Shown here: positions 39,788 through 64,000 of the stretch, in pieces | How the letters are laid out: each line of letters opens with the position of its first letter | Numbering within the stretch: the first letter of the stretch is position 1 | NCBI GenBank assembly: GCA_031459625.1 | Contig: JAVKIH010000007.1 | Coordinates: 1-64,000, forward strand | Direction of reading: 5' to 3' | Length of the DNA: 64,000 nucleotides | DNA from: Candidatus Geohabitans tengchongensis | GTDB lineage: Bacteria; Sysuimicrobiota; Sysuimicrobiia; Sysuimicrobiales; Humicultoraceae | The notes under the pieces: model-generated | The model's database searches: none | What the model was told of the DNA's origin: nothing | Seen by the model: only the letters and a program-made list of their open reading frames with translations | Position numbers and translations under genes: made by a program

Positions 39788-40534
39788 TCACCCGAAGTAC
39801 CACCGGACGAGGGAGGCCCCCCAGAACAGCCCTGCCAGGCTGCCGAGCGCGAGGAAGGGGCCGAAGGGGATGGCGTCCTTCCGCCGGCGTAGTCCCAGCA
39901 GGATCAGGGCGATGCCCACGAGCCCCCCGGCGAGGAAGCTGAGGAAGAGGGCAGCGGCGATGGTCGGCCATCCCAGGAAGAGGCCCATCACGGCGGCCAG
40001 CTTGACGTCACCGCCGCCCATCCCGCCCCGGCTGACCACAGCGACGGCCAGGAAGAACGCTCCGGCCCCCACGCCGGCCAGGACCCGCTCCGCCAGGGCG
40101 GCGGGGCCGTCGGGCAGCGCCAGCAGCAGGCCCGCGGCCATCCCCGGGTAGGTCACGGCGTTGGGGATCAGCCGGTGGTCCAGGTCGACGAACACGACGA
40201 CCACCAGGATCAGCACGAAGAGGGCGGCGCGCAGGCCCTCCCAGGTGGGGCCGAAGGCCCGCCAGACCGCCACGAAGAGCAGGGCCGTCAGCGCCTCCAC
40301 CAGCGGGTAGCGCCACGAGATGGCCGTCCCGCAGTGGCGGCAGCGGCCCCGCAGCAGGAGGAAGCTGAGGAGCGGCACGTTGTCCCGCGCGGCGATGGGG
40401 TGGCCGCAGGCCGGACAGCGCGAGCGCGGGGCCACCACCGACTCCCGGCGCGGCACCCGATAGATCACCACGTTGGCGAAGGAGCCCACCATGGCTCCCA
40501 CCACCGCCGCCACCAGCCCCTGCACGGCCGTCAT
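39788..40534 (-). CDS. pilD: Prepilin peptidase/N-methyltransferase
   Basis: GSFANVVIYRVP, CPAC...CRHC, RYPLVE, DL, GMGGGDVKL, IPFGPFL. Confidence 0.96.
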   Translation of the reverse strand: MTAVQGLVAAVVGAMVGSFANVVIYRVPRRESVVAPRSRCPACGHPIAARDNVPLLSFLLLRGRCRHCGTAISWRYPLVEALTALLFVAVWRAFGPTWEGLRAALFVLILVVVVFVDLDHRLIPNAVTYPGMAAGLLLALPDGPAALAERVLAGVGAGAFFLAVAVVSRGGMGGGDVKLAAVMGLFLGWPTIAAALFLSFLAGGLVGIALILLGLRRRKDAIPFGPFLALGSLAGLFWGASLVRWYFG

Positions 40535-47293: not shown

Positions 47294-47313
47294 CGCGCCT
47301 CGAACCTCCCTGC

Positions 47314-48201: not shown

Positions 48202-48233
48202 CAGCCGGCGAGACCTGGACACGCCCACCGCCC

Positions 48234-48803
48234 TCAACTCCGCCACCACATCCCGCGCAGGATCGCGGAGGAGAGTTCGGCCCGCAGCAGGCCGTCGTGG
48301 TAGACCCGCACGGTCACCCACTTGACCAGGTTGCTGTCCGTGGCGGCGTTCCCCGTGATGGGGCACGGGGGCCCGGTCGGGTCGCGGGCCACGCGGCAGG
48401 GCACCGGGGCGGACGCCATCGCCACCTGGTCCACCAGGATCTCGTAGGCGTAGGCCCCGAAGGGCGGGGCGAAGGGGGTCGGGCCTTGCGAGGTCAGGGC
48501 GTCCCAGGCCGCGGTCCACTGCGCCAGGGTGGGCTGGGCCTCGACGCGCGCCCGCACCTCCTCGAGCGTGCGGGCCGCCAGGTTCGCCGCCACCGTCGCG
48601 CTGCCGCTGCGGTTGGTCACGACCAGGATGGTGGCGGCAGCACGCGCCGCAAAGAGCAGCGCCAGTGCCGCCAGCGTGAGGGCCACCACGACTTCCAGCA
48701 AGGTGAGGCCGCGCTCGGCCCATCGTCCCTGCCCGCGGCGCGGGATCCGGGTCGGACGCGCACGGCAGGGAGGGTGAGACAGGTTTCCAGGCGGCCAGGG
48801 CAC
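48234..48803 (-). CDS. PilV-like minor pilin; start uncertain
   Basis: RG|LTLLE, hydrophobic helix, ATVAANLA...LEE, KWVTVRV. Confidence 0.83.
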
Positions 48804-48913
48804 GAGACGCCACTCCCTCCACTCGGCCGTGAGTGCTGCAGCGACAAGGGTTGTCGGCTGGTCTGTGAACACGGGCTCATTCGACGCCCCTGGCGCGCGT
48901 CCCTCGTTTCGCT

Positions 48914-48930
48914 ACATTTGCTGACATTTG
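48914..48930. promoter_or_regulatory. Direct repeat ACATTTG x2 with 10-bp period upstream of cassette 1
   Basis: ACATTTG-CTG-ACATTTG in an AT-richer intergenic patch. Confidence 0.4.
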
Positions 48931-49000
48931 GTCGCAGGGGGATGGACGGGAGCGTGCCGGGAGTTTGGCCTGAACGTCCGGGGAAGTTCTCCCGATCCGG

Positions 49001-49522
49001 CTATGGGGCGAGCTCGACGCGGCCGCCCACGTTCACCACCACGCGGCGCTGCCCCCCGCCGGGCGTGCGCAGCACCACGGCCCCCGCGTTGGGGTTGCCG
49101 AACGGCGAGACGGTCATCGTGTTGCCCGCGAAGGAGGTGCTGGCCAGGTCGATGCGCGAGGGCAGGGTCACGGCCCGCAGCGGCTGCCAGCCGGTGGCCG
49201 GGCACCCGGTGGTGACGTCCCACGGATCGGTGGTGAACTGCAGGGTGTAGGCCTCGCCGGCCGGGTCGAAGGTCACCCGCCAGCAGCGCCGCTCGGTGCG
49301 GGCCCGCTGCTCCACCAGGCGCAGGTCCCCGACCAGCGTGCGGGCGGCGCCGGCCAGCCGGCGGTCGTCGATGAGGCTGCGGCCCCCCAGGCTCAGCGCC
49401 AGGAGGATGCCCAGCAGCACCACCACCACGACCACCTCGACCAGCGAGAGGCCCTGCTGGTCACGGCCCGGTCCAGCGGAGGAGCGTCCCATCGCCATCC
49501 CTGTTCCGTCCGCCTCCGCCAT
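49001..49522 (-). CDS. FimT/FimU/GspH-like minor pilin
   Basis: QG|LSLVE; AAR-x-L-x-x-DLR...AR; C-terminal V-x-x-x-GRV. Confidence 0.85.
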   Translation of the reverse strand: MAEADGTGMAMGRSSAGPGRDQQGLSLVEVVVVVVLLGILLALSLGGRSLIDDRRLAGAARTLVGDLRLVEQRARTERRCWRVTFDPAGEAYTLQFTTDPWDVTTGCPATGWQPLRAVTLPSRIDLASTSFAGNTMTVSPFGNPNAGAVVLRTPGGGQRRVVVNVGGRVELAP

Positions 49523-49534
49523 GCCCCTGCCGGC

Positions 49535-51586
49535 CTAGTCGCGCACCAGCTCCTCCCAGATGGGGCGGTCGTAGAGGAGGTCGACGCGATCGCGCGGGTC
49601 GGGCATGTTGGGCCACAGCAGCGCGGTGAACTGCGTGGTCAGCGGGATGAACGGGGGGGCCGTGTTGTAGAGGAAGCGCTGGTCGAAGGCCATCTCGCGC
49701 CCGTACCCGGTGATGGGATCGAAGCCGCCGAACTCCCCGAAGCGCTTCTGGGTGGCCCCGCCCAGGAAGTGGAGGGTCCCCTTGTCGGGCAGCCTGTTCC
49801 ACCCCTCCACCCAGAACTGTCCCCACGGCGCGAGCACCCCGGCGTCGATGTAGAGGTCGTTGGGGGTCATGTCCCCCACGACCGTCACGTCCCGGGGACG
49901 GATCCGCGGCGCGTCGTCGCGCGGGTTGCTCGCGTCGCAGGAGGACGGGTCGCCGGTGCGGGGGCTGGAGCACCAGGCGTACAGCCCGAGCACGTTGGCC
50001 ACCGGGTCAGTGGGCCCGGTGGGCGGCTGGGCGTAGACCAGGTGGTTGGTCACGCGGATCTCGCCGTCGGCGGCGATGGTCAGGCGGGTGTCGGGGTGCA
50101 CGGTGCCGTACAGGCCGGTCCGCGGGTCGCGCGGATCGCTCAGCACGCTGCCGTTCACAAAGAGCATGCCGTTCCACTGCTTCCCCGTGTCGACGCAGGC
50201 GGCGTCGTTCCAGGCCACGGCCCCCGGACAGACGCGCACCGCTCCGCCCGGCAGGAGGACGAACTTCTTCGCCGGGACCGCGGGGTCGGCGTGCACGACC
50301 ACGATCTCCTGCAGGCCGGCGCGGCAAGGCATCGCCGTGCACTGCAGCACCAGGTTGCGGACGTCCCCATGGACGAAGATGCCGCCGCAGGTCGCCGCGG
50401 CGCACTCGTCCATGAAGTAGATGCCCGGGGGCAGCCGCACGCCGTTGATCGTCTGGTTGCGGGCGGCGACGTCGATGGCCGGGTCGGTGGTGCGGCTGCG
50501 CACCTGGGCTTCACTGGGCTGGAGGGGCCGCGTGGTGGGGGCATCGCCGATGACGGCGCGGAAGGGGCTGTAGTCCCCGGGCGGGTTCAGCACCTGCACG
50601 TTGTCGGCCGGCCCGCGCGCCAGCGGCGCGCCCTGGTAGGCCGGCCGGTCGCAGGACGGGTTGCTGTCCGCGGCGAGGAGCTGGGGCGTGCCGCAGTTGC
50701 CGAAAAGCACGTTGGACAGGACCTGGCTCACCGTGGAGCGGAACGTCGGGGCCCCCCAGATGGCGAAGCGGCTGTTCGTGTGCACCGGCCCGGAGAAGAC
50801 CGTCGTGTCCACCAACCAGACCGGGTTGGTCGCGTCGAACGCCGTGTCCAGCGTGGCCGAGGCGAAGCAAACGTAGCAGCGCAGCCCGATAACCAGGGGG
50901 AACCCCTGGTCGCTGTCCCATCGCGGGTCGCCCTTGTCGGGGGCGGCCAGCCAGGCGCCGCAGGCGGCGGTGTTGGCCACGGACTTCAGGCAGATGGTGC
51001 GGCGAGCCTCCTGGGTGACGCCGGTGGCCACGATGAAGTAGTCGAGCGGCATGCGGAAGTACTGCGGGGGGAAGGGCGGCGGTGGCTGGCAGTCGTTGGA
51101 CCCCGGCCCCGGGGAGTTGTCGGCCGGCCGCACGTAGACCGTGGCGTACCACGCGCCCACGACGTTCCCCGCCGCGTCGCGGACCTCGATGGGGACGGCC
51201 GCGCTCCCCAGCGGGAGCCAGGCGTAGCGCTGCGCGTCGTCCTCCTGCCACTCGCCGGGGTCGCCGGCGAAGGCGGCCACCACCTTCCACGCCTGGCCGC
51301 GGTTGGTCTGGCACCAGGTGCGCAGGAGGTTGCCGTCGGCGAAGGTCACGCGGGCGGAGAGCTGGTTGGGGTGGCGCAACCGGTAGCGCAGCTCGGCCAG
51401 CGCGCGGTAGGCGCCGGCCTCGGCCAGGTGGAGCGCCTGGGCGCCGCGGCTCTGGGCGTAGGAGAGACCCGTCTCGCTCATCGTGGCCATGGCCAGCGCG
51501 GCCACGACGATGGTCAGGACGATGACGGCCAGAACGGCGCTCAACAGGGCCACGCCTGCCTGATCGCGACCGAGGGCCTTCCACAT
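49535..51586 (-). CDS. Large PilX-like minor pilin/putative tip protein, paralog 2
   Basis: [42 protein letters not shown]...PPFIP. Confidence 0.8.
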
Positions 51587-51611
51587 CGTCGAGGTCACCT
51601 CTCCTCCTGGC

Positions 51612-52700
51612 TCAGCGGCCCCGCGGCGTCGGCTTGGGCGTCGGGGTCGGGGTCGGCGTCGGGGTCGGGGTCGGCGTCGGGGTCGGGGTCGGCGTCGGCC
51701 GCGGGGTCGGCGCAAGCGTGGGGGTGGGTGTCGGCGCCGGGGTCGGCCTGGGCGTCGGGGTGGGCGTCGGGGTGGGTTTGGGGCTCGGTGACGGGCTCGG
51801 TGTCGGCAGCGGGGTCGGTGGTGGCGGTGGCGGCGTGGGTCCCGGCGTGGGCGTCGGGGCCGGGGTGGGCGCCGGCGTCGGCGTCGGCTGGGGGGTCGGC
51901 GTGGGACTCGGTCGTGGCGTGGGGGTCGGTGTCGGCGCCGGGGTCGGGGTGGGAGGCGGGGTGGGCGTCGGCGTGGGGGTGGGCGTCGGGGTCGGCGTGG
52001 GGGTGGGCGCGCCGGCGCCGAGCGTCACGACCGGGCGCGGCGGCGGCGTGCCCGCCACCGGGGGAACAGGGATCCCGGGCGTGGCCACCGCGCGGCGGAG
52101 GAAGACATCGCTCTGCACCGCACCCTCCAGGAGCCCGGCCCCCTGGGCCGGCGCCAGCCCGGCGGGGCGCGTCAGCCGCAGGTCCACCTGGATGCGGACG
52201 ACGTTCAGGGGGATCGTGGTGGGCGCGTTCGCGGCGTCGAAGTAGCGGAAGACCACGTCGCTGACCTGCGTCGCCAGCACCGTGGTCGTCGTCGCGACGC
52301 CGCGCTCCTCCACGCGCTCGAGCTGCTGGCGGGCGGCGTTCAGCCGAAAGGTCACCCGGTAGGCGGTGCGGGTGAGCGGGTTGTCAGCGGGGATGGCGAG
52401 GGTGACGCAGTCGGGCGCGAGGGCCGGCGCCGGACAGGCCAGGGTGGCCACGTCCACGCCGGCGGCCCACCGGGCTTCCTGGGCGATGCGCGAGAGGCCG
52501 ACGCGGGCCTGCTGCTGCACCTCCATGAAGGCCTCGTTCACACTCGCCGAGCGCAGCGACTCGCGCACCATCCCGTACAGCGACCCGACGACGATCACCA
52601 GGACGGCGATCCCCACGAGGACTTCGAGCAGGGTGACGCCGCGCGTGGCCCGCGGTGGCGGCCAGCGCCGCAGCGTGGGGATGGGACCGCGCCGGCGCAT
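51612..52700 (-). CDS. PilW-like minor pilin with a long C-terminal Pro-Thr tail
   Basis: RG|VTLLE; QQQAR...QEARWA; FRYFD; tail of about 130 aa of PT. Confidence 0.86.
51620..52007 (-). repeat. Degenerate 6-nt repeat encoding (Pro-Thr)n
   Basis: GGGGTC/GGCGTC/GGCGTG units on the + strand. Confidence 0.95.
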
Positions 52701-52703
52701 GGG

Positions 52704-53339
52704 CTAGCGGTGGTACGCCCCCCGCAGGATGGCCGTCGTCATGCGCACGACGCAGATGGCCTCGTCGGGCAGGGCTGCAGGGTCGAGCTGGCAGGAGACG
52801 TGCGGTGGGGGCCGGCGCGTTGTCCCCTCGCCCGGCACGGGACGGGCGCGGAAGTAGACCTCGACCGTCACCCAGCGGACCCGGTCGTCCACCGAGGGGT
52901 CCTCGTCGCGCGCGCAGTCCGGGGCGTAGGGGGAGGCGCCCGGGAGGCTCGGCTCGACGTTCCAGGCCGGCAGGAGGAGCGCCTCCTGGCCCGCCCGCGC
53001 CGTCACCGCCGCCTCGTTCACCAGGATCCGGTAGCTGTACGCCCCGAAGGGCGCCGCGAATGGGATCGGGGGATCGCTGGGGTTGGGCGGGGTGTTGGCG
53101 ATGGCGCAGAAGGCGTTCCGCCAGCCCACGCGGGTCGTCTGGGCCTCCACCGACGTGCGCAGCTGCTCCAGTTGACGTGCCGCCAGTCCCGTCGCCACCG
53201 TCACGCTCCCGCCCTGGGCGGTGACGCTGAGGATCGTGAGGAAGGCCCGGGTGATCAGGAGGATGACGGCCGCCAGCAGCGACAGCGCCACCAGGATCTC
53301 GATGAGCGTAAATCCCCGCTGGCCTCTCATCCGGCCCAT
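52704..53339 (-). CDS. PilV-like minor pilin
   Basis: RG|FTLIE; VATGLAARQLEQ; paralog of 48234-48803 (shared PFAxPFGAYxY and WVTV). Confidence 0.86.
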   Translation of the reverse strand: MGRMRGQRGFTLIEILVALSLLAAVILLITRAFLTILSVTAQGGSVTVATGLAARQLEQLRTSVEAQTTRVGWRNAFCAIANTPPNPSDPPIPFAAPFGAYSYRILVNEAAVTARAGQEALLLPAWNVEPSLPGASPYAPDCARDEDPSVDDRVRWVTVEVYFRARPVPGEGTTRRPPPHVSCQLDPAALPDEAICVVRMTTAILRGAYHR

Positions 53340-53582
53340 CCCGGCTCCCCTCCCGAAGACCGTGCCCCGTTGGCGTGCGCTCCAGACCGTCCCCCGCGCT
53401 CCCCGAGGCGACATGCCCGGCCGGGGGAGGCCCGATCCGCACGCCGGCCGGGCTGCCGCCCGGTATGGGAAACGGCCGGTTCCGGTGGATTTTCCGGGGG
53501 TGGTCAGGCGTCTGTCCGTCCGCCGGATGGCGGCGCCCCTGGGCCCCACCAGGGCTGGGTGTGGTGACGATCCCCTCCGGCG

Positions 53583-55406
53583 TCACGGCGACCGCTGGGG
53601 CACGGGGATCTCCTGCCAGACCGGCTTGTCGTAGAGACTGTCGGGCGGGCGTCGCACCGCCGCGAAGCGCGCCGACCGCGGCAGGGCCGGGGGGGTCCGG
53701 TCCTGCAGCCGCCTGTCGTGGCGGATCACCCGGGCGTACCCCCGCCGCAGGTCCGCCAGGGGGTCGAAGGATCCCACCGGGCCAAAGGTGGCCTGCACGA
53801 TGCCGCCCAGCAAGTGGAAGGTCCCGCGGTCCTCCACCGTGTCGTGCCCGTCCACGGCGAAGCGGCCACGGGGGGCGAGCACCACCGCATCGACGTAGAG
53901 GTCGCGGGGCGCCTCGGCCCCGTCCACCAGCACGCTGCCCGTCGTGCTGTAGAGCGCCAGGAGGTTCACCGCCTCGCCCCCCCGCCCGGGCGGCTCGGCG
54001 TAGACCAGGTGGTCCACCAGACGGATGTCGCCCGAGGCGGCGATGGTCAGGACGCTGTCGCGGTGCACCGTTCCCGACAGGCCCCTGATCGCCCCTTCGA
54101 CGAAGACGACCCCGTTGGGACGGCCCCGGTAGGTGCGGCCGGCCCCGGCGCGCTCGCCCTGGCCGACCCGCACCTCTTCCGCGGCCCAGTCGATCTCCAC
54201 GCGCCAGACCGGCGACCGTCCCTCGGCCAGCCGCAGCAGGATCACCTGGCGGGGGCCCTCGGCGGCCAGCACCATGCGCTCCACGTCGCCGCGGATGTAG
54301 AGCCCGCCCGGCCGCCGCGTGTCCGGGTGACGCACCGAGACGCCGTCGTTGGCCACGAGCACCGCGCCACGCGCGCCGGCCTGGTCGGCGGTCGCGCGCT
54401 GGATGTCGGCGTCGACCGGGTCGGGCCCCTCGGGGTCGAGCCCCAGGGCCGCGCGCGCCGGCTTCGGCGGGCTGTCCGGGAAGGCCACGCGCGAGACGCC
54501 CAGGTGTGGCTGCCCGCCCCGGTACACCGGGTGGTCGCCCGCACAGCTCCCGCTCCTGGGATTGTCGGCCTGCCGCAGGCTCACCGGCGCGCCGCAGTTG
54601 CCGAAGCGGATCGTGGGCGCCGCGCTGCTCACCGGGCCCCCGAAGACCGGCGCCCCCCAGATCCACCACTCCCCGTTGGTGTGCGCGGGGCCGTCCACCA
54701 CGGTGCCGTCGGTGAGCCAGGTCTCTGAGGTGTCCAGCAGCAGGAGCGCCCACCGCGCCAGGCTGGCCCGCTCCAGTAGGAGTTCCACCGGCCGGTCGGG
54801 CGGGCTGCTCAGGCGCACGCCGCGCCGCGCCCCCCCGGCCGACCCCACGGAGAGGACCTCGTAGTGGACGAAGAACCGGTAGCGTTCCTCCGCCTCGGCG
54901 CCGGACCGGCATTCCGGCGGTGGCGCGTCACCGCCGGCGGAACGGACCCGGACCGCGGCGGTGAACGTGCCGACCTCTCGCCCGTCCCGGCCCAGCGCCG
55001 CGATGGGTCGTCCGCCGCCCAGCGCCAGCACCGCCTCACTGCGGCCGGGATCGGCCCCCCAGTCGCTGGGACCCTCGAAGTGGGCAAACTCCGCCACGAC
55101 CATGGCGCCCTGGTCGGATGCGCACCACGCCGCCAGTACGTCACCTATCGCCGTGGCCAGACGGGCGTCGAGCTGCACGGCGAGGCGGTGGCGCAGCTCC
55201 GCCAGGGCACGGTAGGCCCCGGCCTCGGCCAGGAAGAGGGCCTGGGCCCCGCGCAATTGCCCGCTGGAGAGGGCCGTCTCGCTCATCGTCGCCACCACGA
55301 GCGCGCCGACCAGCAGCGTGACGATGAGGATGACCCCCAGCACGGTGACGAAGATGACCCCGTCCTCCCGCCCCAGCGGGCCTCCCCGGCCGGAGGTCAG
55401 CCGCAT
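53583..55406 (-). CDS. Large PilX-like minor pilin/putative tip protein, paralog 3
   Basis: [56 protein letters not shown]. Confidence 0.8.
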   Translation of the reverse strand: MRLTSGRGGPLGREDGVIFVTVLGVILIVTLLVGALVVATMSETALSSGQLRGAQALFLAEAGAYRALAELRHRLAVQLDARLATAIGDVLAAWCASDQGAMVVAEFAHFEGPSDWGADPGRSEAVLALGGGRPIAALGRDGREVGTFTAAVRVRSAGGDAPPPECRSGAEAEERYRFFVHYEVLSVGSAGGARRGVRLSSPPDRPVELLLERASLARWALLLLDTSETWLTDGTVVDGPAHTNGEWWIWGAPVFGGPVSSAAPTIRFGNCGAPVSLRQADNPRSGSCAGDHPVYRGGQPHLGVSRVAFPDSPPKPARAALGLDPEGPDPVDADIQRATADQAGARGAVLVANDGVSVRHPDTRRPGGLYIRGDVERMVLAAEGPRQVILLRLAEGRSPVWRVEIDWAAEEVRVGQGERAGAGRTYRGRPNGVVFVEGAIRGLSGTVHRDSVLTIAASGDIRLVDHLVYAEPPGRGGEAVNLLALYSTTGSVLVDGAEAPRDLYVDAVVLAPRGRFAVDGHDTVEDRGTFHLLGGIVQATFGPVGSFDPLADLRRGYARVIRHDRRLQDRTPPALPRSARFAAVRRPPDSLYDKPVWQEIPVPQRSP

Positions 55407-55458
55407 GCGCAGCGCCGCACCTCGCACCGGGGCGGGACGGGTGTGCCGGGGCATGGAA

Positions 55459-56295
55459 TCAGCGCGGGTAGCCGGCGGGCGCGTGGGTGGGGGCGGGGGC
55501 GGGTCGCTCCTCCGTGGAAGCGGTCTCGTCCTCCGGCACGGCCTCGCCCGAGCCTGGCGGCCGCTCTCCCCTAGCCCGGGCGGAGGGCTGCGCTCGGTCA
55601 TCGGCGGTGAGCGCCGTCACGGGCCGAGGGGTGGGCCGCCAGGAGAGATCCCGTCCGGGTTCACCGGCGAGCGGCTCGGTCGGAACGGGCGAGGGGAGCT
55701 CCGCCACCCCGACGTTGCGGAGGAGGATGTCGGCCGGTGTGGTCCTGCGCACGCCCCTCCCGCCGGGGGAGGCCGTGGTCACCTCGACCTGCAGGCGGGC
55801 CACCTCGCGGGCGTGGGCGGGCTGCCCACCCTGCGCGGTCAGGTACCGGAAGGTGAGCTGGGCGACGCCGGAGGCGAGCACCGCCTCCTGGCCGTCCTGG
55901 CGGCGCACCACCTCCTGGCGCCGCGGGTCGTACCGGAACTCCACCCCGTAGGGGCGGCCCGGACGGATGGGATTGGCGGCGGGGATGCGCAGCGCCACCC
56001 GGTCGGGGCACAGGCCGGTTGCCCCGCACCCGGCGAGAGGCAGGATCGCTTCCGCCCACCGGACTTCCTCGCCCAGCCGCTCGGCCACGAGGCGCCCCGC
56101 CTGCTGGGCATCCAGGGCATCCTCCACCAGTCCAAAGGACTGCATGGCGGTGAGGACCAGGCCGTAGACCCCCGCCAGGGCGACGGCCACGACGGCCAGG
56201 CCGACGACGATCTCGATGAGGGTGTAGCCGGCATCGCTCCCGGAGCGCTCGGCGTCGCCTCGGTCGAGTTCGCAGCCCCGGCGCATGGCGGGCAT
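55459..56295 (-). CDS. PilW-like minor pilin with a P/T/S-rich but non-repetitive tail
   Basis: AGGAGG RBS; AG|YTLIE; QQAGR...EEVRWA; CPDRV shared with 47314-48201. Confidence 0.85.
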   Translation of the reverse strand: MPAMRRGCELDRGDAERSGSDAGYTLIEIVVGLAVVAVALAGVYGLVLTAMQSFGLVEDALDAQQAGRLVAERLGEEVRWAEAILPLAGCGATGLCPDRVALRIPAANPIRPGRPYGVEFRYDPRRQEVVRRQDGQEAVLASGVAQLTFRYLTAQGGQPAHAREVARLQVEVTTASPGGRGVRRTTPADILLRNVGVAELPSPVPTEPLAGEPGRDLSWRPTPRPVTALTADDRAQPSARARGERPPGSGEAVPEDETASTEERPAPAPTHAPAGYPR

Positions 56296-56629: not shown

Positions 56630-57787
56630 GTGGACGCGCGCCGCACAGCGGCAGAAACCTTGCTCGTCTTCGCCGCCGTCCTGGCCGTCTACCTGGCCGC
56701 TACGCCCCGGACGAACCAGGCCTACCGCCACTTCGTCTACCAGGCGGACGCCTTCCTCCACGGCCACGTCGACCTGCGCGGCCTCCCGGCGTACTACCAC
56801 GACGTCGTCCACCTGGATGGGAAGGTCTACGCCCCCTTCCCCCCGGTGCCGGCCGTCCTCCTCCTCCCTCTGGTGGCGGTGGTGGGGACGGACCTGGACC
56901 AGGGGCGGGTCGGGCAGGTATTGGCCGCGCTCGCCGTCGCCGTCTTCACGGCGGGGCTGCGCCGGCTGGGACTGCCCCGGGCGGTGCGCCTGTGCACCGC
57001 GGCGGCGCTGGCCTTCGGGAGCGTGCTGTGGCCTGCCACGGCCATCGGCACGACCTGGTTCTTCGCCCAGGTGGTCGTGGTGCTGGCGGCGGCGGCGCTG
57101 GTCTGGGAGCTGGCCGGGCCGGCTCGAGGCGCGGTGGCAGGTGCACTCCTGGCGGCAGCCTGGCTGAGCCGGGTGAGCCTGCTCCCGGCAGCGCCGGCGG
57201 TAGCCCTGTGCCTCTGGACCCGCCACCGCCGGCCTACAGCCCTGTGGGCCTTCGCCGCGGTGCAGGTCGTGGGGCTCCTCATCTATCTGGCCTTCAACCA
57301 GGCCCGTTTCGGGGACCCCCTGCAGCTCGGGTACCGCCTCCTCTCGATGGGGGCGCCCAACGCGGAGGCGGTGGCGCGGTGGGGCTTCTTCAACGTGCGC
57401 TACATCCCCCACCACCTCTACGCCATGTTCCTCCAGGGGCCGGAACTGATGGAGGGACCTCCCTTCCTCCGCCCCTCCCCATGGGGCCTCGCCTTGATCT
57501 TCACGAGCCCGCTCGCGGCGCGGCTCCTCTTCACGCCGCCACCCCCGGAGGTCTGGTGGCCGTGGGGCGCTGTCGTCCTCTCGCTCGTGCTGCCGATGCT
57601 GGCCTACTTCTCGGTGGGGTGGGTGCAGTTCGGGTACCGCTACAGTCTGGACTGGTGGGTCTTCCTGCTGGTGCCGCTGGCCTACGCGCTGCGGCCCGCG
57701 CCACGCGTGGTGGACTACCTGCTGCTCGCCGCCGGGATCGCCATGAACGCGCTCGGCGTCTACTGGGTGCAACGGCTGGGGTGGTGA
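56630..57787 (+). CDS. Polytopic membrane protein, probable GT-C-fold glycosyltransferase; start uncertain
   Basis: About 10 TMs; QADAFL-x-G, G-x-x-Y-x-PFPP-x-PA, N-x-ARFGDP, QFGYRYSLD. Confidence 0.65.
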   Translation: MDARRTAAETLLVFAAVLAVYLAATPRTNQAYRHFVYQADAFLHGHVDLRGLPAYYHDVVHLDGKVYAPFPPVPAVLLLPLVAVVGTDLDQGRVGQVLAALAVAVFTAGLRRLGLPRAVRLCTAAALAFGSVLWPATAIGTTWFFAQVVVVLAAAALVWELAGPARGAVAGALLAAAWLSRVSLLPAAPAVALCLWTRHRRPTALWAFAAVQVVGLLIYLAFNQARFGDPLQLGYRLLSMGAPNAEAVARWGFFNVRYIPHHLYAMFLQGPELMEGPPFLRPSPWGLALIFTSPLAARLLFTPPPPEVWWPWGAVVLSLVLPMLAYFSVGWVQFGYRYSLDWWVFLLVPLAYALRPAPRVVDYLLLAAGIAMNALGVYWVQRLGW

Positions 57788-59085
57788 GCGTGACCGGGAG
57801 TCCGGCCGGCCCCGGCCTCGTGGCGGACCCGCTCCCCGAGCCACCCGAGCGCCTCCCTGCGGCGTCGGCGCAGGCGCGCCGTCTGTGGGTGTGGCTGGCG
57901 GTGGCCGCGGCCCTGCGCGTGGCCATCCTGCCGCACGGGGGCTTCCCGTCGGACATCGCCTCCTTCAAGGCGTGGGCGGCCACGCTGGCCGAGCACGGGC
58001 CCCGCGGCTTCTACGGCCGGGGGTTTGCCGACTACCTGCCCGGCTACCTGTACGTGCTGTGGGGCGTGGGTGAGCTGACGGCCGCCCTCCGCCTCAACGA
58101 CGCCGCTGCGCTCGTCCTGCTGAAGCTCCCCGCCGCGCTCGCCGACCTCCTCGGTGCGGCGGTGGTGCTGCGGCTCGCCCGCCGCGTCCTGCCGGAGGCG
58201 GGCGCGGTGACCGTGGCCGTCCTCTACCTCCTCCACCCCGCGCTGCTCTTCACGACGGCCTACTGGGGACAGGCCGACAGCGTGGGCGGGCTCCTGGGGG
58301 CGGCCGCCCTGTGGCTGGCGCTCCAGGGCCATCTGCTGGCGTGGAGCGTGGCGGCGCTGGCCGTCCTGGCCAAGCCGCAGACCGCACCGCTGCTGGGCGT
58401 GATGGGGGTCCTGCTGCTGCGCCGGGCGCTGTGGCCGCCCGAGCGTCCTCCCGCATTCCGGCCGCAGCCCGGCCCCGTCGCCGCGGCCCTCCCCCTCTTC
58501 CTGGCCACGGCCGTGCTGGTCGCCGCCCCCTTCGGGGTCGGCCTGCTCGGCCTGCTCCACCTCCTGCGCAGTGCCGCCGAGGTCTACCCCTACGGGAGCG
58601 TCATGGCCTTCAACCTGTGGGGGGCCGTGCAGGGGTTCTGGCAGAGCGACCTCGCGCCGGTGGCGGGCTGGCCGCCGCTGCAATGGGGGATCGCGCTCAC
58701 CGCGGTGGCGCAGGCCGTGGTGCTGTGGGCGGTGTGGCGCCGTCCCGACGAGCGCACCGTGGTGACCGGTGCCGCCACGGCGCTCACGGCCGCCTTCCTC
58801 CTCCCCACGCGGATCCACGAGCGCTATCTTCTGCCGGCCCTCCCCTTCCTGCTGGTGGCGGGGGCGGCCGACCGGCGCGTCCGGCTCCCCGCCGGGCTCC
58901 TCAGCCTCGTCCTGACGCTGAACCTGCTCTACGCCTACACCCGTCCCTACCTGCAGACGGTGACGCTGCCGGGGTGGCTGGAGGCCACACTCTTCAGCCC
59001 GCCGGCCACCCGGGTCCTCAGCGCCCTGGCGGCAGCGACCCTGCCGCTCCTGCTGCGGGCGCTCGTCCTCCCGCCGCGCTCCTGA
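57784..59085 (+). CDS. GT-C lipid-phosphate-sugar-dependent glycosyltransferase (mannosyltransferase-like)
   Basis: SDI-x-x-F-x-x-W, DYLPGYLY, KLP-x-x-LAD, WGQADS, KPQ, HERY; many TMs. Confidence 0.75.
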   Translation: MSVTGSPAGPGLVADPLPEPPERLPAASAQARRLWVWLAVAAALRVAILPHGGFPSDIASFKAWAATLAEHGPRGFYGRGFADYLPGYLYVLWGVGELTAALRLNDAAALVLLKLPAALADLLGAAVVLRLARRVLPEAGAVTVAVLYLLHPALLFTTAYWGQADSVGGLLGAAALWLALQGHLLAWSVAALAVLAKPQTAPLLGVMGVLLLRRALWPPERPPAFRPQPGPVAAALPLFLATAVLVAAPFGVGLLGLLHLLRSAAEVYPYGSVMAFNLWGAVQGFWQSDLAPVAGWPPLQWGIALTAVAQAVVLWAVWRRPDERTVVTGAATALTAAFLLPTRIHERYLLPALPFLLVAGAADRRVRLPAGLLSLVLTLNLLYAYTRPYLQTVTLPGWLEATLFSPPATRVLSALAAATLPLLLRALVLPPRS

Positions 59086-59764
59086 GCTGCCAGTACAGGC
59101 GGAACAGGTCGTAGAAGGCCCGCAGGATCACCCGGAGCCGTCCGCCGGTCTGGCGCCCGGCCCGCCGCGGCCGGTGGGAGACCGGGACCTCGGCGAACCG
59201 CGCCCCGGCCCGTCGCGCCCGGGCCAGCAGTTCGGCCGTCATGAAGGCGCCGCGCGACTCCAGCGGCAGCGCGCGCACCAGGTCGCCGCGCAGCAGCTTG
59301 AACGCGCAGTTCACGTCCCGCACCCGCACGTCCAGCAGCGCCGCCATGAGCCGCCGCCACAGCGCGGCGAACCAGCGGCGGTGGAGCGGGTCGGCGCGGT
59401 GGACGCGGTAGCCCAGGACAAAGTCCGCGCCCTCGCCGGCGGCGGCGAGCAGCCGCGGCAGCTCCGCCGGGACGAACTGCCCGTCGGCGTCCATCAGGAG
59501 GATCCAGGTCCCGCGGGAGGCGGCGAAGCCCGTGCGCACCGCCGCACCGTACCCCTGGTTGCGAGCGTGGCGCAGCAGGTGCACCCGCGGGTCAGCGCGC
59601 CCCAGGGCCTGGGCCGCGGCCGTCGTCCCGTCGGTGGAGCCGTCGTCGACGATGAGCACCTCGTAGGACCGCCCGGTGGCCGCCAGCGCGGCGGTGAGCT
59701 CGCGCACCGTGCGCTCGAGGTTGGCCGCCTCGTTGAAGGCGGGGAGGACGGCGCTCAGATCCAC
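59018..59764 (-). CDS. GT2 polyprenyl-phosphate sugar (mannose) synthase, DPM1-like
   Basis: LPAFNE, VDDGSTDGT, N-x-GYG-x-A, MDADGQF, DVNCAFK, EVPV-x-H-x-PR. Confidence 0.9.
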   Translation of the reverse strand: MDLSAVLPAFNEAANLERTVRELTAALAATGRSYEVLIVDDGSTDGTTAAAQALGRADPRVHLLRHARNQGYGAAVRTGFAASRGTWILLMDADGQFVPAELPRLLAAAGEGADFVLGYRVHRADPLHRRWFAALWRRLMAALLDVRVRDVNCAFKLLRGDLVRALPLESRGAFMTAELLARARRAGARFAEVPVSHRPRRAGRQTGGRLRVILRAFYDLFRLYWQLRSAAGGRAPAAGAAGSLPPGR

Positions 59765-60963
59765 GTCCCGAACCACATCAGCCGCTGGAAGCGCGCCTGG
59801 GCCAGGGGCAGTGCCGACAGCAGTGGGTAGTAGGCGACGAACCACAGGGCGGCCGCAGCCAGGTAGAGGCCCACGACGGCCGGTCCGGCCCGCGCGCGCC
59901 CGCGGGCCAGGGTCAACGCCAGGGCCAGCACCATGAACGGCAGGGCGGGGAGCATGTGGTAGAGGAAGAGCGCCCGGCCGATGAAGACGTACGGGAGGTA
60001 GCTGGCCAGGAATCCGGCCAGGACGAAGGTGCCGGCCGGTGTGCGACGGCGTACCGTCTCCCACCCCAGGAGGAGGAAGGCGGGCAGCGCCGCCCACCAC
60101 ACCACCACGTTGCCGAGCGCGATGATGCCGCGCACCTGCCCGCCGCCCAGGTCCTGGTAGTCGTACCAGATCGGCCGCACCAGCAGGGGCCACGACCACC
60201 ACGCCGACTGGTACGGGTGCGTGGCGGTGAGCCCGGCGTGGAAGCGGAACATCCAGACGTGGAAGCGCGCCCACTCCCCGAGGTCGTGCCCGCGCAGGAA
60301 GTAGGGGGTCCAGGCCAGGAGGTAGACGAGGAGCGGCACAAGGCCGTAGGCCCCGGCCAGGTGGGCCCAGTGCCGCCGTGGCAGGCGCGCCCACCCCTGC
60401 CACAGCAGCAGCGCCAGGAAGAGCGGGATCACCCCGAGCGGGGCCGCCCCTGTCCACTTCGTGGCCACGCTCATCCCCGCGGCCGCCCCCGAGAGGTACA
60501 GCCACCCGACCCGGCCCGACCGCAGGTAGCGCCAGAACGCCCAGTAGGCGGCGACGAGGAAGGTGACGAGGAAGATGTCCGGCTTGGCGATGCGGCTCTC
60601 CACGAAGGCCAGACCGTCCAGGGCCAGCAGCACCGCCGCCATGGCTGCGGTGGACGCGCTGCCGGTGACCTCGCGGGCCAGGAGGAAGACGAGGAGCACG
60701 AGCAGGGTCCCGCTCACCGCGGGGGCCAGCCGCCACCCCAGCGACCGGTCGCCGGCCACCGCCATGCCGGCGGCGATGAGGAGCTTGCTCATGGGCGGGT
60801 GGGTGATCTCTTCGGTGATCTCCTGCCCGGCCAGGTACTGGCGTGCCGCCTTGGCGTAGTAGATCTCGTCGAAGATCATGGCGGGCGGCTCGGCGAGGCG
60901 GAAGGCGCGGACGCCGCCGGCGAAGAGCAAGACGGCGGCGAGCAGGACCAGGGGACGCGACAC
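59755..60963 (-). CDS. PMT/GT39-family protein O-mannosyltransferase-like
   Basis: IFDEIYY (DE motif), HPP-x-x-K, GWR, SR, KW-x-G, HPYQS-x-WWSWP, FLYH-x-LP. Confidence 0.85.
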   Translation of the reverse strand: MSRPLVLLAAVLLFAGGVRAFRLAEPPAMIFDEIYYAKAARQYLAGQEITEEITHPPMSKLLIAAGMAVAGDRSLGWRLAPAVSGTLLVLLVFLLAREVTGSASTAAMAAVLLALDGLAFVESRIAKPDIFLVTFLVAAYWAFWRYLRSGRVGWLYLSGAAAGMSVATKWTGAAPLGVIPLFLALLLWQGWARLPRRHWAHLAGAYGLVPLLVYLLAWTPYFLRGHDLGEWARFHVWMFRFHAGLTATHPYQSAWWSWPLLVRPIWYDYQDLGGGQVRGIIALGNVVVWWAALPAFLLLGWETVRRRTPAGTFVLAGFLASYLPYVFIGRALFLYHMLPALPFMVLALALTLARGRARAGPAVVGLYLAAAALWFVAYYPLLSALPLAQARFQRLMWFGTWI

Positions 60964-60999: not shown

Positions 61000-61260
61000 T
61001 CAGGACGGCGGGCTGTCAGGCGGCAGCGCCTGCCCGTGGACGACCCGCCAGACCCCGGCCGCCCGCGCCACGTCGTGCTCGTCCACCACCGCAGAGACTT
61101 CGGCCACGAGGTATCCCTCGGCATCCCGCACCCGCAGGCGCCCGCGCACGACCACATCGGCGAACAGCAGGGCCTGGAGGTCGGGGAGGGGCACCTGCCG
61201 GCGTTCGGCCTCGTGGGCCAGAGCAGCCTCTAACCTGTCGACACGGGCATCCAGCGCCAT
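61000..61260 (-). CDS. Short hypothetical protein, possibly a deleted remnant of a PD-(D/E)xK-like family
   Basis: ADVVVRGR...YLVAEVS...DVARAA then an abrupt GVWRV end; preceded by a consensus promoter. Confidence 0.5.
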   Translation of the reverse strand: MALDARVDRLEAALAHEAERRQVPLPDLQALLFADVVVRGRLRVRDAEGYLVAEVSAVVDEHDVARAAGVWRVVHGQALPPDSPPS

Positions 61261-61277: not shown

Positions 61278-61306
61278 ATCCTAGAAGTGGGGGCTGGGGG
61301 TGTCAA
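61278..61306 (-). promoter_or_regulatory. Near-consensus sigma70 promoter for the 61260 ORF and probably the PMT and GT2 genes
   Basis: TTGACA-N17-TAGGAT. Confidence 0.7.
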
Positions 61307-61342: not shown

Positions 61343-63943
61343 TCAGGGCCCGACCTTGGTGGAGGAACCGTCGGCGAAGAGCGTCACCAGGATGGACTCG
61401 CCGGCGACCAGCCCGCACTTCATCGGCCGGCCCCCGCCGGCCTGACCGGTCGCCCGCATCTGAATCTCTGTGGCGGTGCCACCCGGCGGGACGATCTCGT
61501 ACGCCCAGCACGAACCGGAGGTCGGGGGTGGCACGAAGCCGAGCTGGGCCGGGTCGGTGATGCCGACCCACGTGTCGTACTCCTGGTAGTGCATCCAGGC
61601 GAAGCGCTTCAGCTCGATGAGGACCTGGTGGGCCTCGGCGGCCAGGGCCCCCTCCCGGGCGCCCAGGTACCGCGGCAGGGCCAGTGAGAGCAGGACCCCC
61701 AGGATGGCCAGCACCACCACCAGCTCGACCAGGGTGAAGCCGGACGCTGCGGGATCGGGTCCGTCGCGGCCAGGGCCACTCCCCGCAGGCCCGCCCTGTC
61801 CCCTGCGCAGCCGCCCGCGCCACCTTGTGACGCCCCGGGCCGTCGCGGCCTTGGCTGCAGCGCGCGCCGTTACCGCGTCGGCCGCGGCGCGGATCGCCTC
61901 CAGGTGGTGCGGCGTGATGCGCGGTCCGTAGAGCGCCTCCTCCACCACGGCCGTCATCCTCCTCACCTCCGGCCAGCCCAGCGCGCGCTCGGCCCGCCCG
62001 GCGAACTCCCGTGGCGTCTCCGCCTCGCCGCGCGCCAACCCGCGGCGGCGCAGCACGCGCAGGCAGCGCGCATACTCCGCCAGGACGCCGTCCCGCGGGT
62101 CGGCCGGCCGTCGACGACGCCCCATCCGGGCCCCGACCAGGATGATGAGGATCAGGAGGAGTGCGGCCTGCGCTGCCGGGGCCCATAGAGGGGATGCCCA
62201 CCCCGGCCGCCCCGCAGACCCGTCGGGGTGCCCCGGCCAGCGCGTGCGCAGGTAGCGGGCCAGCCCCTCGAAGCCCCACCGCGGCGCCGTCCGGGGCAGC
62301 GCCGCCGGCTCGGCGAACCCCGGTGTGGGCTCGAACTCCACCCAGCCGACCTCCGGGAAGAAGACCTCGACCCAGGCGTGCGCGTCGCTGCTGCGCACCT
62401 CCAGGAGCCCGGTCAGCGGGTGGAAGGTGCCGGGTGTGTACCCGGTGGCGAGCCGCGCCGGGACCCCCACCAGGCGCAGCAGAACAGCCATGGCGCTGGC
62501 GAACTGCTCGCAGTACCCCCGCCGCTCCTCGAAGAGGAAGTAGTCCACCGCGTCCCCCGGCCGGCGCTGCGGCGGGATGGTGAGGTCGTAGCGGTAGTGC
62601 GTCCAGAGGTACCGGTTGACCCGCAGGGCCCGCTCGTAGGGGGTGCGCGCGCCCGCCGTGATCGCCTCGGCCAGCCGCCGGACCCGCTGCGGCACTGTGT
62701 CGGGCACCTGCAGGTAGCGCGCCAGGAGCTCGTCCGGGTAGCGGTCGCCGGCGGCGGCCAGCCGGGCCGGCGTGGGGTCGACCACGCGCGAGACGACGGT
62801 GTAGATCATCCCCGGCTCGAGCACGAAGGGGAGCCGCACCGCCGAGTAGCGGTCGACGAAGACGTGCCGCCCCGGGAAGTAGACCTCCTCCACGCGGGGG
62901 GCGGCGAAGGCGACATTGGGCTGTTCGCGCTCGACGTAGAAGGTCTGGATCAGGCGCCGTGCCCCCCGCGACGAGGCGTAGCTGTCGTCGCGGCCGCGGA
63001 GGACCTCGATGGGAGGGACGACGGCGGTGTGGCGGCGTACCCGGTCGTCGCCGATGCGCCAACCCGTCCCGGTGTAGACATCGAAGACCAGCGCCCGCCA
63101 CAGCCGCGGCTCCCCGGCGCGCACGCGCATGACCAGGGCGTCGTTGAGCCGACCGCGCAGCCGCAGCTCCACGGTGGGACTGAAGCCAAAGTACCCGTGC
63201 GGGTTGAAGACGGTGGTGCCGCCCGCCGTGCCCGCGGGGTAGGCCGGGTTGACCACCTCGCCGTCCAGCGTCGGTCCCAGCGGGACGCGCGGCGTGAAGG
63301 GGAACGAGGTGATGAAGAGGCCGTCCAGGCGCGGGGTGGCCAGGAAGACCACGACGGCGAGGGCCGCCAGCGGCACCGCGGCGCGCACGGCCGAGCTGCC
63401 GGTCTCGCGCAGCCCCGCCAGGACCCGCAGGCCGCTCCCCACGCGGCCCCCCTCCGTCGCCCTTTCCGCAGCCGGCGCGGGCCTCCCGCCTCCTGCCGCC
63501 TCGCGCGCCGCCTCGGCGGCATTCAGCATCAGCGCCGCGACGGCGGCCACCAGGTAGGGGGTCAGGTAGAGGGCAAAGCGCAGGTCCAAGCTGAAGGCCG
63601 CCGCCACGGCCATCAGCACCAGCGAGGTGAGGAGGCTGAAGAGCAAATCGCGCCGGCGCGGCAGGTCGAAGCTGTGCAGCACCTGCAGCCACAGCAAAAA
63701 GACGGTGAGGGGGATGCTGGTGTGGTACGGCGCCGCCGCCAGCGCCCGCAGGAAGGCCCACCCGGCGAGGAGGCACCCCAGGGCCAGCGCCGCCTTCAGC
63801 CAGGTGTTGCGCCGCCGGCGGCGGTACCAGGAGACGACGAACCCGCAGGTGGCCAGGGCCAGCATCTCCCAGCGCAGAGTCCCGAAGTCCTGGTGCGCGG
63901 TGATGGCCAGGATGCTGAGGAGGACGCAGAGGTAGACCCACAC
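61343..63943 (-). CDS. TgpA-like transglutaminase-domain membrane protein (DUF3488-TGase-TM-DUF4129) fused to a C-terminal type IV pilin; frame stays open to the window end
   Basis: N-terminal TMs; GYCEQFASAMAVLLR, DAHAWVEV, GWVEFEPTP; DUF4129-like GL-x-R-x-x-x-ETP-x-EFA...E-x-x-LYG; then SG|FTLVELVVVLAILGVLLSLALPRY. Confidence 0.85.
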   Translation of the reverse strand: MWVYLCVLLSILAITAHQDFGTLRWEMLALATCGFVVSWYRRRRRNTWLKAALALGCLLAGWAFLRALAAAPYHTSIPLTVFLLWLQVLHSFDLPRRRDLLFSLLTSLVLMAVAAAFSLDLRFALYLTPYLVAAVAALMLNAAEAAREAAGGGRPAPAAERATEGGRVGSGLRVLAGLRETGSSAVRAAVPLAALAVVVFLATPRLDGLFITSFPFTPRVPLGPTLDGEVVNPAYPAGTAGGTTVFNPHGYFGFSPTVELRLRGRLNDALVMRVRAGEPRLWRALVFDVYTGTGWRIGDDRVRRHTAVVPPIEVLRGRDDSYASSRGARRLIQTFYVEREQPNVAFAAPRVEEVYFPGRHVFVDRYSAVRLPFVLEPGMIYTVVSRVVDPTPARLAAAGDRYPDELLARYLQVPDTVPQRVRRLAEAITAGARTPYERALRVNRYLWTHYRYDLTIPPQRRPGDAVDYFLFEERRGYCEQFASAMAVLLRLVGVPARLATGYTPGTFHPLTGLLEVRSSDAHAWVEVFFPEVGWVEFEPTPGFAEPAALPRTAPRWGFEGLARYLRTRWPGHPDGSAGRPGWASPLWAPAAQAALLLILIILVGARMGRRRRPADPRDGVLAEYARCLRVLRRRGLARGEAETPREFAGRAERALGWPEVRRMTAVVEEALYGPRITPHHLEAIRAAADAVTARAAAKAATARGVTRWRGRLRRGQGGPAGSGPGRDGPDPAASGFTLVELVVVLAILGVLLSLALPRYLGAREGALAAEAHQVLIELKRFAWMHYQEYDTWVGITDPAQLGFVPPPTSGSCWAYEIVPPGGTATEIQMRATGQAGGGRPMKCGLVAGESILVTLFADGSSTKVGP

Positions 63944-64000
63944 GCGCAGCGCCCCTGAGCCCGTGCTGGGAAGATGCGCGTGGTCTGCCGGACCGGCCGG

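What the first reader, a model, noticed from the sequence alone, without database searches (positions are those of the whole stretch)
61343..63943. Transglutaminase-like membrane protein fused to a type IV pilin, with an internal prepilin-peptidase site
Seen: one uninterrupted frame of at least 866 aa. It encodes a TgpA-like protein (Cys in GYCEQF, His in HAW, FEPTP, a second membrane anchor and a DUF4129-like tail), then a basic Gly-rich linker, then a textbook class III motif SG|FTLVE (Gly codon 61739-61741). After that come the hydrophobic helix, LPRY and a 131-aa mature pilin with two Cys. There is no in-frame ATG/GTG/TTG between the DUF4129-like region and the motif. Known: PilD cuts G|F at the cytoplasmic face of the membrane, and prepilin leaders are normally short. 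Inference: the DUF4129 tail should be cytoplasmic, so the ~735-aa TGase part could act as a giant leader. PilD (39788-40534) would then release the pilin and the Cys-His enzyme 1:1 from a polyprotein, possibly to cross-link or process pilus subunits. Alternative: a lost stop codon or a 1-nt indel, since out-of-frame GTGs exist in the linker.
Basis: partly seen in the sequence, partly recalled or inferred. Interest (0 to 1): 0.85.

Follow-up and report, generated by a model that had tools for sequence, protein, structure and literature searches.

The report
Pilin gene nested in transglutaminase gene
In a small group of uncultured heat-loving bacteria, a membrane transglutaminase gene has no stop codon and runs on into a complete type IV pilin, and a strong ribosome-binding site inside the enzyme's tail suggests the pilin is also made on its own, so the pilus-maturing protease PilD would likely act as the enzyme's missing stop signal.

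Summary
The fusion is real. One open frame joins a TgpA-like transglutaminase to a type IV pilin with an intact G|F site. It is identical in two runs' contigs and kept in a second species (89% identity). No other genome among 94 of the phylum has it.

It follows a near-perfect Shine-Dalgarno built with a rare AGG codon, a combination seen once in 1130 comparable sites. A third lineage has lost the enzyme's catalytic Cys. It carries 16 own changes upstream of Met663 and none in the 28 residues after it or in the pilin.

Best reading: a prepilin gene nested in the same frame. It likely gives a 204-aa prepilin and an unavoidable 899-aa fusion, both predicted to be cut by PilD. A strict 1:1 polyprotein is unlikely, and nothing supports pilus cross-linking. 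Translation and cleavage are untested. The scan has noted internal prepilin fusions on other DNA (unchecked). New variant of known kinds; interest 0.5.

The parts
61343..64000 (-). Fused ORF, TgpA-like transglutaminase + type IV prepilin. It runs past the window edge; likely start is the ATG at contig position 64042 (899 aa, 97.9 kDa). Residue numbers below count from the GTG at 63943.
   Evidence: own start has a weak Shine-Dalgarno, -5.2 kcal/mol (GTG 63943: -5.7)
62768..63928 (-). TgpA_N (DUF3488): N-terminal membrane helices and start of the extracytoplasmic region
   Evidence: E 1.5e-25; hydropathy scan
62327..62677 (-). Transglut_core with Cys478 (62510-62512), His522 (62378-62380) and Glu538 (62330-62332) where TgpA has Asp
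   Evidence: (6G49, E 4e-22)
62132..62188 (-). Last membrane anchor (586-604), followed by an Arg-rich run, so what follows is predicted cytoplasmic
   Evidence: positive-inside rule (established knowledge)
61880..62074 (-). DUF4129 tail; its second half also codes the start of the predicted short prepilin
   Evidence: E 1.2e-9
61963..61970 (-). Internal Shine-Dalgarno GGAGGTGA, 8-nt match to this genome's 16S tail, 5 nt before ATG; kept in L031
61955..61957 (-). Met663 ATG, predicted internal start of a 204-aa prepilin with a 73-aa leader
   Evidence: Met kept in all three lineages
61742..61873 (-). Basic Gly/Arg-rich linker with poor codon adaptation; 40% identical to the second species, frame kept
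   Evidence: CAI 0.40, below the 1st percentile 0.44 of 12,848 windows; 0.57 in L031
61739..61741 (-). Gly(-1) of the class III cleavage site G|FTLVE
61343..61738 (-). Mature pilin, 131 aa, two Cys, and the only stop codon of the frame
   Evidence: (dN/dS 0.11)
61278..61306 (-). Sigma-70-like promoter just after the pilin stop, before a coiled-coil ORF and the PMT gene; also seen in L031
   Evidence: 2 sites found in the region, 0.0 expected
39788..40534 (-). PilD prepilin peptidase/methylase, the predicted processing enzyme

Best explanation
A type IV prepilin gene lies in the same reading frame as the 3' end of a TgpA-like transglutaminase gene, and it likely has its own start at Met663 inside the enzyme's DUF4129 tail, so the locus would give both a 204-aa prepilin and an 899-aa fusion, each predicted to be cut by PilD at G|F. 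Shown: the single frame, the domains, the Shine-Dalgarno plus ATG, their retention in sister lineages, and purifying selection on both halves. Inferred: ribosomes start at Met663, probably more often than at the enzyme's weak start. A stop codon after Met663 would destroy the pilin, so the enzyme is locked into read-through. PilD cleavage of the long form would then release a near-normal membrane enzyme (768 aa, 84 kDa, about 10-35 residues longer at its tail than in relatives) plus one more pilin, standing in for the lost stop codon. The 13.8-kDa pilin would join the membrane pool as a secondary pilin beside the separate major PilA. No functional coupling between enzyme and pilus is needed.
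For: (1) The Shine-Dalgarno at Met663 scores -15.4 kcal/mol against the genome's own 16S tail. 21 of 8325 internal in-frame ATGs score as well, this one included. The major pilA start scores -14.5 and the enzyme's own start -5.2.
(2) Of 1130 in-gene sites with the same Glu-Val codons after a G, 1 is followed by AGG and 9 have ATG at this distance. Only this site has both. AGG is 1.9% of Arg codons, and the codon is kept in L031.
(3) Local mRNA structure is weak: -6.8 and -5.0 kcal/mol, against a median of -8.6 at 196 strong-SD model starts.
(4) 40 of 42 unfused loci aligned at this position have Leu, Ile or Val, none has the full 8-nt site, and all 42 stop 34-72 codons later (some rows are duplicates).
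(5) The P0005 lineage (6 records) lacks the enzyme's N-terminal part and catalytic Cys, and the matching contig of run X7 leaves the gene at 62404. It has 16 own changes in 147 columns before Met663, 0 in 28 columns from Met663 to 690 and 0 in 131 pilin columns.
(6) Against L031, dN/dS is 0.11 for the pilin and 0.10-0.43 for the enzyme's domains.
(7) PilD is intact. PilD needs no other protein and leaders vary in length (PMC10191384, passages). Geobacter PilA is reported as two isoforms with short and long leaders, both cut by PilD (PMC6201914, passage).
Against: - No translation, cleavage or expression data. The RNA run X4 is kept as contigs and may hold DNA.
- A 73-aa leader is about twice the longest (7-38 aa) among the 27 free pilins examined.
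- The GGAGGT core comes free with the conserved Pro-Glu-Val. 2 of 42 unfused loci have ATG at the same place with a weaker site, and G001 has GGAGGT before a TTG there.
- The statistics are post hoc.
- The decay contrast is partly because pilin is conserved anyway. Against the window genome's own changes (5 before Met663, 2 after) Fisher p is 0.083. Zero changes in the 28 columns has a chance of 0.04-0.06. Two of the 16 changes are doubtful: a start-codon artefact and one ambiguous column.
- The P0005 remnant could be translated from its own first GTG instead, and its DNA was seen only through the read-laying tables.
- No promoter was found inside the enzyme gene.
- Only three lineages of one apparent genus carry the fusion.
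Confidence: 0.6

Rival explanations
1. True polyprotein: only the long form is made, and PilD releases enzyme and pilin 1:1, perhaps so that the enzyme processes or cross-links pilus subunits.
For: The frame is open in three lineages, both halves are under purifying selection, and the topology fits. The cluster lies among pilus and glycosylation genes. Transglutaminase-family genes are linked to some archaeal pilus loci, role unknown (PMC4858521, passage).
Against: A strong internal start unique in the genome. The pilin stays unchanged where the enzyme has lost its catalytic Cys. The enzyme is unfused in 42 of 42 other aligned loci. The enzyme's own start is weak.
Confidence: 0.15
2. The pilin comes only from the internal start. 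The long form is a tolerated by-product that PilD does not cut, so the enzyme keeps a pilin-shaped tail.
For: Same internal-start evidence. No tested case of PilD cutting behind a polytopic protein was found.
Against: Long and short forms share the same 73 residues before the site. Processing depends on Gly(-1) and happens at the cytoplasmic face (PMC6497953 and PMC10191384, passages), so a difference would need a steric or insertion block.
Confidence: 0.15
3. The pilin starts closer to the cleavage site at lineage-specific codons (CTG at Leu712 here, a GTG 34 residues upstream in L031), giving an ordinary short leader, and the Met663 site is incidental.
For: These give leaders of 24 and 34 aa, within the 7-38 aa range of free relatives. 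Scores are -7.7 and -9.5 kcal/mol.
Against: Both are much weaker than -15.4 and neither is shared. The AAGG before the CTG is changed in X5 and X7, CTG is a poor start codon (general knowledge), and the L031 GTG aligns with ACG here.
Confidence: 0.08
4. Assembly or sequencing error that removed a stop codon or shifted the frame.
For: The genome is a metagenome assembly, and frameshift-like pilin-pilin 'fusions' do occur in public protein sets.
Against: Identical contigs in X1 and X4, in-frame linkers in X5 and X7 from other studies, and full fusions in three further records with a different linker.
Confidence: 0.01

Closest known systems
TgpA (PA2873) of Pseudomonas aeruginosa; DUF3488 + Transglut_core, PDB 6G49
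   Same: Same N-terminal membrane domain, extracytoplasmic Cys-His core (E 4e-22) and further anchor. It sits at the end of a gene cluster (MoxR-DUF58-TGase here; PA2875-PA2874-tgpA co-transcribed, PMC3507681 passages; that those two genes are MoxR and DUF58 is recalled).
   Different: Glu in place of the third catalytic Asp (also in unfused relatives). No stop codon; continues into a pilin. Activity untested here.
Type IV prepilins with a class III signal, cut by PilD (Pfam N_methyl, TIGR02532)
   Same: Hydrophilic basic leader, Gly(-1), Phe1, Glu5, hydrophobic helix; about 50% identical to free pilins of the same family.
   Different: The signal is not N-terminal. The predicted leader is 73 aa (short form) or 768 aa (long form), against 7-38 aa in 27 free relatives.
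Geobacter sulfurreducens PilA long and short isoforms (Richter et al. 2012, seen only as cited in PMC6201914)
   Same: Two precursors with different leaders giving one mature pilin through PilD.
   Different: There the leaders are 10 and 29 aa. Here the long form's leader would be a whole polytopic enzyme.
In-frame internal start sites such as E. coli arcB / ArcB-C (10.1101/520783, abstract and section 7)
   Same: A Shine-Dalgarno plus start codon in the 3' quarter of a membrane-protein gene gives a separate C-terminal product.
   Different: There the short product is a domain of the same protein. Here it is an unrelated gene product, and a protease is predicted to separate it from the long form.

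Membership tests
TgpA-like transglutaminase | DUF3488/TgpA_N followed by Transglut_core | tested here: met
   both over cut-off
TgpA-like transglutaminase | Cys-His-Asp triad | tested here: inconclusive
   Cys478 and His522 align with 6G49; the third position is Glu538. Cys is absent in the P0005 lineage.
TgpA-like transglutaminase | Extracytoplasmic catalytic domain between membrane helices | tested here: inconclusive
   Hydropathy and charge pattern fit; no dedicated topology predictor or structure model was available
TgpA-like transglutaminase | Transglutaminase or peptidase activity | not testable with these tools
   needs an assay
Type IV prepilin (class III signal) | Gly(-1), hydrophobic tract, Glu5 | tested here: met
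Type IV prepilin (class III signal) | Signal at the N-terminus behind a short hydrophilic leader | tested here: not met
   Long form: 768 residues precede it. Predicted short form: hydrophilic leader (11 K+R, 6 D+E) but 73 aa long. It works like a prepilin, but the long form is not a standard member.
Type IV prepilin (class III signal) | Cognate PilD and assembly machinery in the genome | tested here: met
   PilD, PilB, a PilT-like ATPase, PilC, PilM/N/O and a secretin on the same contig
Type IV prepilin (class III signal) | Cleavage, N-methylation and incorporation into the filament | not testable with these tools
   needs experiment
In-frame internal translation start (nested same-frame gene) | Start codon with a well-spaced Shine-Dalgarno inside the main ORF | tested here: met
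In-frame internal translation start (nested same-frame gene) | Site conserved beyond what the protein needs | tested here: inconclusive
   Rare AGG and ATG kept in 2 DNA-level lineages and Met in 3, but few lineages, and the core motif is protein-coded
In-frame internal translation start (nested same-frame gene) | Initiating ribosomes or a short product observed | not testable with these tools
   only contigs were available
Obligate polyprotein (1:1) | Both products depend on one start codon | tested here: not met
   Strong second start, and pilin kept where the enzyme is broken; by sequence evidence only

The most novel reading that the evidence does not exclude
Prepilin peptidase serves as a proteolytic stop codon. 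It matures an 899-residue polytopic enzyme by cutting a pilin off its C-terminus, in an arrangement that evolution cannot easily undo because the pilin's own start lies inside the enzyme's last domain. PilD would then have a non-pilin product and accept leaders of any size, and one mRNA stretch would feed the same pilin by two routes.
Probability: 0.5. Interest if true: 0.7.

Novelty: new variant of a known kind. Interest (0 to 1): 0.5.

Why it matters
How PilD recognises its substrates is described as poorly understood (PMC10191384, passage), and pilins are defined and searched for by an N-terminal signal. This locus offers one natural substrate with predicted leaders of 73 and 768 residues, so a single co-expression test would show whether leader length or an upstream membrane domain limits cleavage. 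It also shows a route by which an inserted gene gains a start by a point change beside a protein-coded Shine-Dalgarno-like motif and thereby locks in a fusion. Reach is limited: one apparent genus, three lineages, one of which has already lost the enzyme. No description of a transglutaminase-pilin fusion or a PilD-cut polyprotein was seen in the searches (listings and passages only; subscription papers and supplements not covered).

Tried and rejected
- Assembly error: rejected.
- Wide conservation: not found. None of 40 relatives has both halves in one match. Only G000 among 94 phylum genomes matches across both halves at E<=1e-22 (many genomes are incomplete). Only P0001 and P0002 appeared among 8000 scored candidates of 476-1516 aa. 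Only P0001 covers both halves among the best 150 listed from 1.84 billion representatives.
- Recent duplicate of the major pilA: rejected. Identity is 45-49%, and the pilin forms its own 100/100 clade on a long branch (all 49 rows kept).
- Long proteins with two N_methyl motifs: 16 scanned, 10 read. The two-motif ones look like frameshifted neighbouring pilin genes and were not used.
- Promoter inside the enzyme gene: no sigma-70, sigma-54 or extended -10 match in 600 nt before Met663 in either species. The same scan also found none in 250 nt before pilA, so it is uninformative.
- DNA of the P0005 lineage: not found in genome contigs or among same-genus genomes. The first metagenome scan found nothing.
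- No structure model was obtained, so fold and topology rest on sequence. No complex prediction was sent, as an enzyme-substrate pair would not be informative.
- Direct searches for the Geobacter isoform paper found nothing. It was seen only second-hand.
- The phylum paper PMC11604079 has no mention of pili.
- Unpublished genomes G008 (L005) and G018 (L014) are in the tallies, and L014 is in alignment A3. No claim depends on them alone.
Full report
Observation. The window's minus strand holds one ORF from 63943 to 61343, 866 aa. The window is the first 64 kb of contig C45 of a 2.76-Mb genome of 73% G+C. The frame is open further upstream, and an ATG at contig position 64042 that is matched in a second species gives 899 aa. 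Pfam finds TgpA_N, Transglut_core, DUF4129 and N_methyl in that order, each over its cut-off. The core matches P. aeruginosa TgpA (6G49, E 4e-22), with Cys478 and His522 aligned and Glu538 where TgpA has Asp. The mature pilin is 131 aa, 13.8 kDa, with Glu5 and two Cys. A same-family relative's locus has the same codons at the tested site as a record titled Armatimonadetes CSP1-3, so the genome is likely in the CSP1-3/Sysuimicrobiota phylum (inference).

It is not an assembly error. Contigs of X4 and X1 cover the junction with no difference, but both runs belong to study P1 and may be the source. X5 (hot spring, study P2) and X7 (soil, study P3) cross the linker at about 96% and 93.5% identity, each with a single 6-nt insertion and no frameshift. 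Only 40 of 212 listed differences were shown, so a stop in X5 is not excluded by that table alone. Protein searches gave a second full fusion, P0002 (897 aa, 89% identical, cluster of 3), whose DNA is L031. Against L031, dS is about 0.2. dN/dS is 0.10 (membrane N-part), 0.16, 0.28 (core), 0.43 (DUF4129) and 0.11 (pilin); a 40-residue loop gives 1.8. The linker is only 40% identical and aligns poorly.

Distribution and origin. None of 40 relatives has both halves in one match, and only G000 does among 94 phylum genomes at E<=1e-22. Of 57 loci given to, 55 matched and 44 aligned at residue 663. Two of these are the fusions; the other 42 stop 34-72 codons later with no pilin motif. The order MoxR-DUF58-TGase-PMT recurs in the family. 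In the fused lineage a pilin and a promoter-led coiled-coil ORF stand between TGase and PMT, and another coiled-coil ORF on the opposite strand stands between DUF58 and TGase. The pilin is 45-49% identical to the genome's major PilA and forms its own well-supported long-branch clade among the family's pilins. The linker's codon use is poor in G000 (CAI 0.40, below the 1st percentile) and low in L031 (0.57), as expected for DNA recruited from outside a gene (inference). The contig carries a full pilus set, PilD included, with both Cys pairs and both Asp motifs.

The overlooked start. Met663 (ATG at 61957) lies inside DUF4129, 5 nt after GGAGGTGA, an 8-nt match to this genome's 16S tail. Its score, -15.4 kcal/mol, is reached by 21 of 8325 internal in-frame ATGs of my rough gene model (2354 genes) and by 2% of model starts. 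It exceeds the major pilA start (-14.5) and far exceeds the enzyme's own (-5.2). The site needs an AGG codon, 1.9% of Arg codons. Among 1130 in-gene sites with the same preceding codons it is the only one with AGG and the only one with both the extended match and the ATG. L031 keeps the site, the AGG and the ATG, and local folding is weak in both. Against this: the GGAGGT core is supplied by the conserved Pro-Glu-Val, 2 of the 42 unfused loci have ATG at the same place with a weaker site, and G001 has the core before a TTG. The test is post hoc, and the implied 73-aa leader is longer than the 7-38 aa of 27 free pilins.

A natural deletion. A search of shorter proteins gave P0005, 353 aa, the only one of 47 hits with DUF4129. 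Its cluster has 6 records, 4 of them 353 aa on contigs of 9-30 kb. It begins after the catalytic Cys and runs in frame through anchor, DUF4129, linker and pilin. Its linker matches the insertion and substitutions seen in X7, whose contig leaves the gene at 62404 and does not cover 62405-62600. The 30 bases beyond that point hint at deletions within the core (weak). This lineage has 16 own changes in 147 columns before Met663, among them the conserved Glu of the core's last strand and the DUF4129 motif. It has 0 in 28 columns from Met663 to 690, 3 in 42 linker columns and 0 in 131 pilin columns. The raw contrast is strong (p 5e-6) but is inflated because pilin is conserved anyway. Against G000's own changes (5 and 2) p is 0.083, and the 0 of 28 has a chance of 0.04-0.06. 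The safe reading is that the pilin is kept without an active enzyme. That the boundary falls at Met663 is suggestive.

Mechanism. The last anchor (586-604) is followed by a run of Arg, and TgpA's core is extracytoplasmic (PMC3507681, passages). So DUF4129, the linker and Gly(-1) are predicted cytoplasmic, where PilD cuts without help from other proteins (PMC10191384 and PMC6497953, passages). I infer two products: a 204-aa prepilin from Met663 and, whenever the enzyme is made, an 899-aa fusion. PilD would give the same pilin from both and free a 768-aa enzyme. Selection on the short prepilin alone explains why the linker stays open and in frame at 66, 67 and 69 codons, and why the enzyme cannot regain a stop without losing half of DUF4129. 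Confidence 0.6. The rivals are a strict polyprotein (0.15), an uncut long form (0.15), other nearer starts (0.08) and an artefact (0.01).

Comparison. Each part has a precedent: TgpA; class III signals; two PilA isoforms cut by PilD in Geobacter (second-hand, passage in PMC6201914); and internal in-frame starts such as ArcB-C (10.1101/520783, abstract and section 7). Archaeal pilus loci are linked to transglutaminase-family genes of unknown role (PMC4858521, passage). The combination was not seen in searches (6 papers listed; 20 of 88 listed; 2 listed). Supplements were closed and subscription papers are not covered. Earlier scan notes describe internal prepilin signals in four other genomes (AI notes, not checked), so the theme may be wider than this locus.

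Verdict. Observation confirmed, first interpretation partly supported. The locus is a real, narrowly distributed fusion best read as a same-frame nested prepilin gene with PilD predicted to trim the read-through enzyme. New variant of known kinds; interest 0.5.

Noticed in passing
window 61000-61260 (-); G000:C45:64227-64823 (+); L031:12836-13567: Paralogous coiled-coil ORFs flank the fused gene and sit at different places in relatives' clusters, like a mobile or often-inserted gene. The downstream copy is 86 aa here but 243 aa in L031, so it is internally deleted in this genome. No Pfam family passes its cut-off.
   Followed up: partly
G000:C45:65808-78729, and window 56660-60963: The MoxR-DUF58-TGase cluster sits among PilB, PilT-like, PilC and PilA genes, three PMT-family glycosyltransferases, a GT2, a GtrA and a Wzy_C (O-antigen-ligase-like) gene: a likely pilin or surface glycosylation cluster, conserved in the family.
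   Followed up: partly
window 45311-56295 (-): Three repeated minor-pilin cassettes, each with a large DUF4900 protein, upstream of PilM/N/O, PilD and the secretin.
   Followed up: no
G000:C45:73277 (-); L206, L213, L215, L216: The major pilA of this clade appears to start with TTG after a strong Shine-Dalgarno in several genera. G001 and G012 have two tandem copies where G000 has one.
   Followed up: no
G000:C1 minus strand, an 883-codon ORF, codon 411: Another internal ATG with a strong Shine-Dalgarno and weak coding signal on both sides: perhaps a second fused or nested gene pair, or an error of my gene model.
   Followed up: no
window 62330-62332; L005, L019: The third catalytic position is Glu rather than Asp here and in unfused relatives, a family-level variant of the TgpA triad.
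   Followed up: no
L031:12691-12730: A short direct repeat, three copies, starts at the pilin stop codon in the second species.
   Followed up: no
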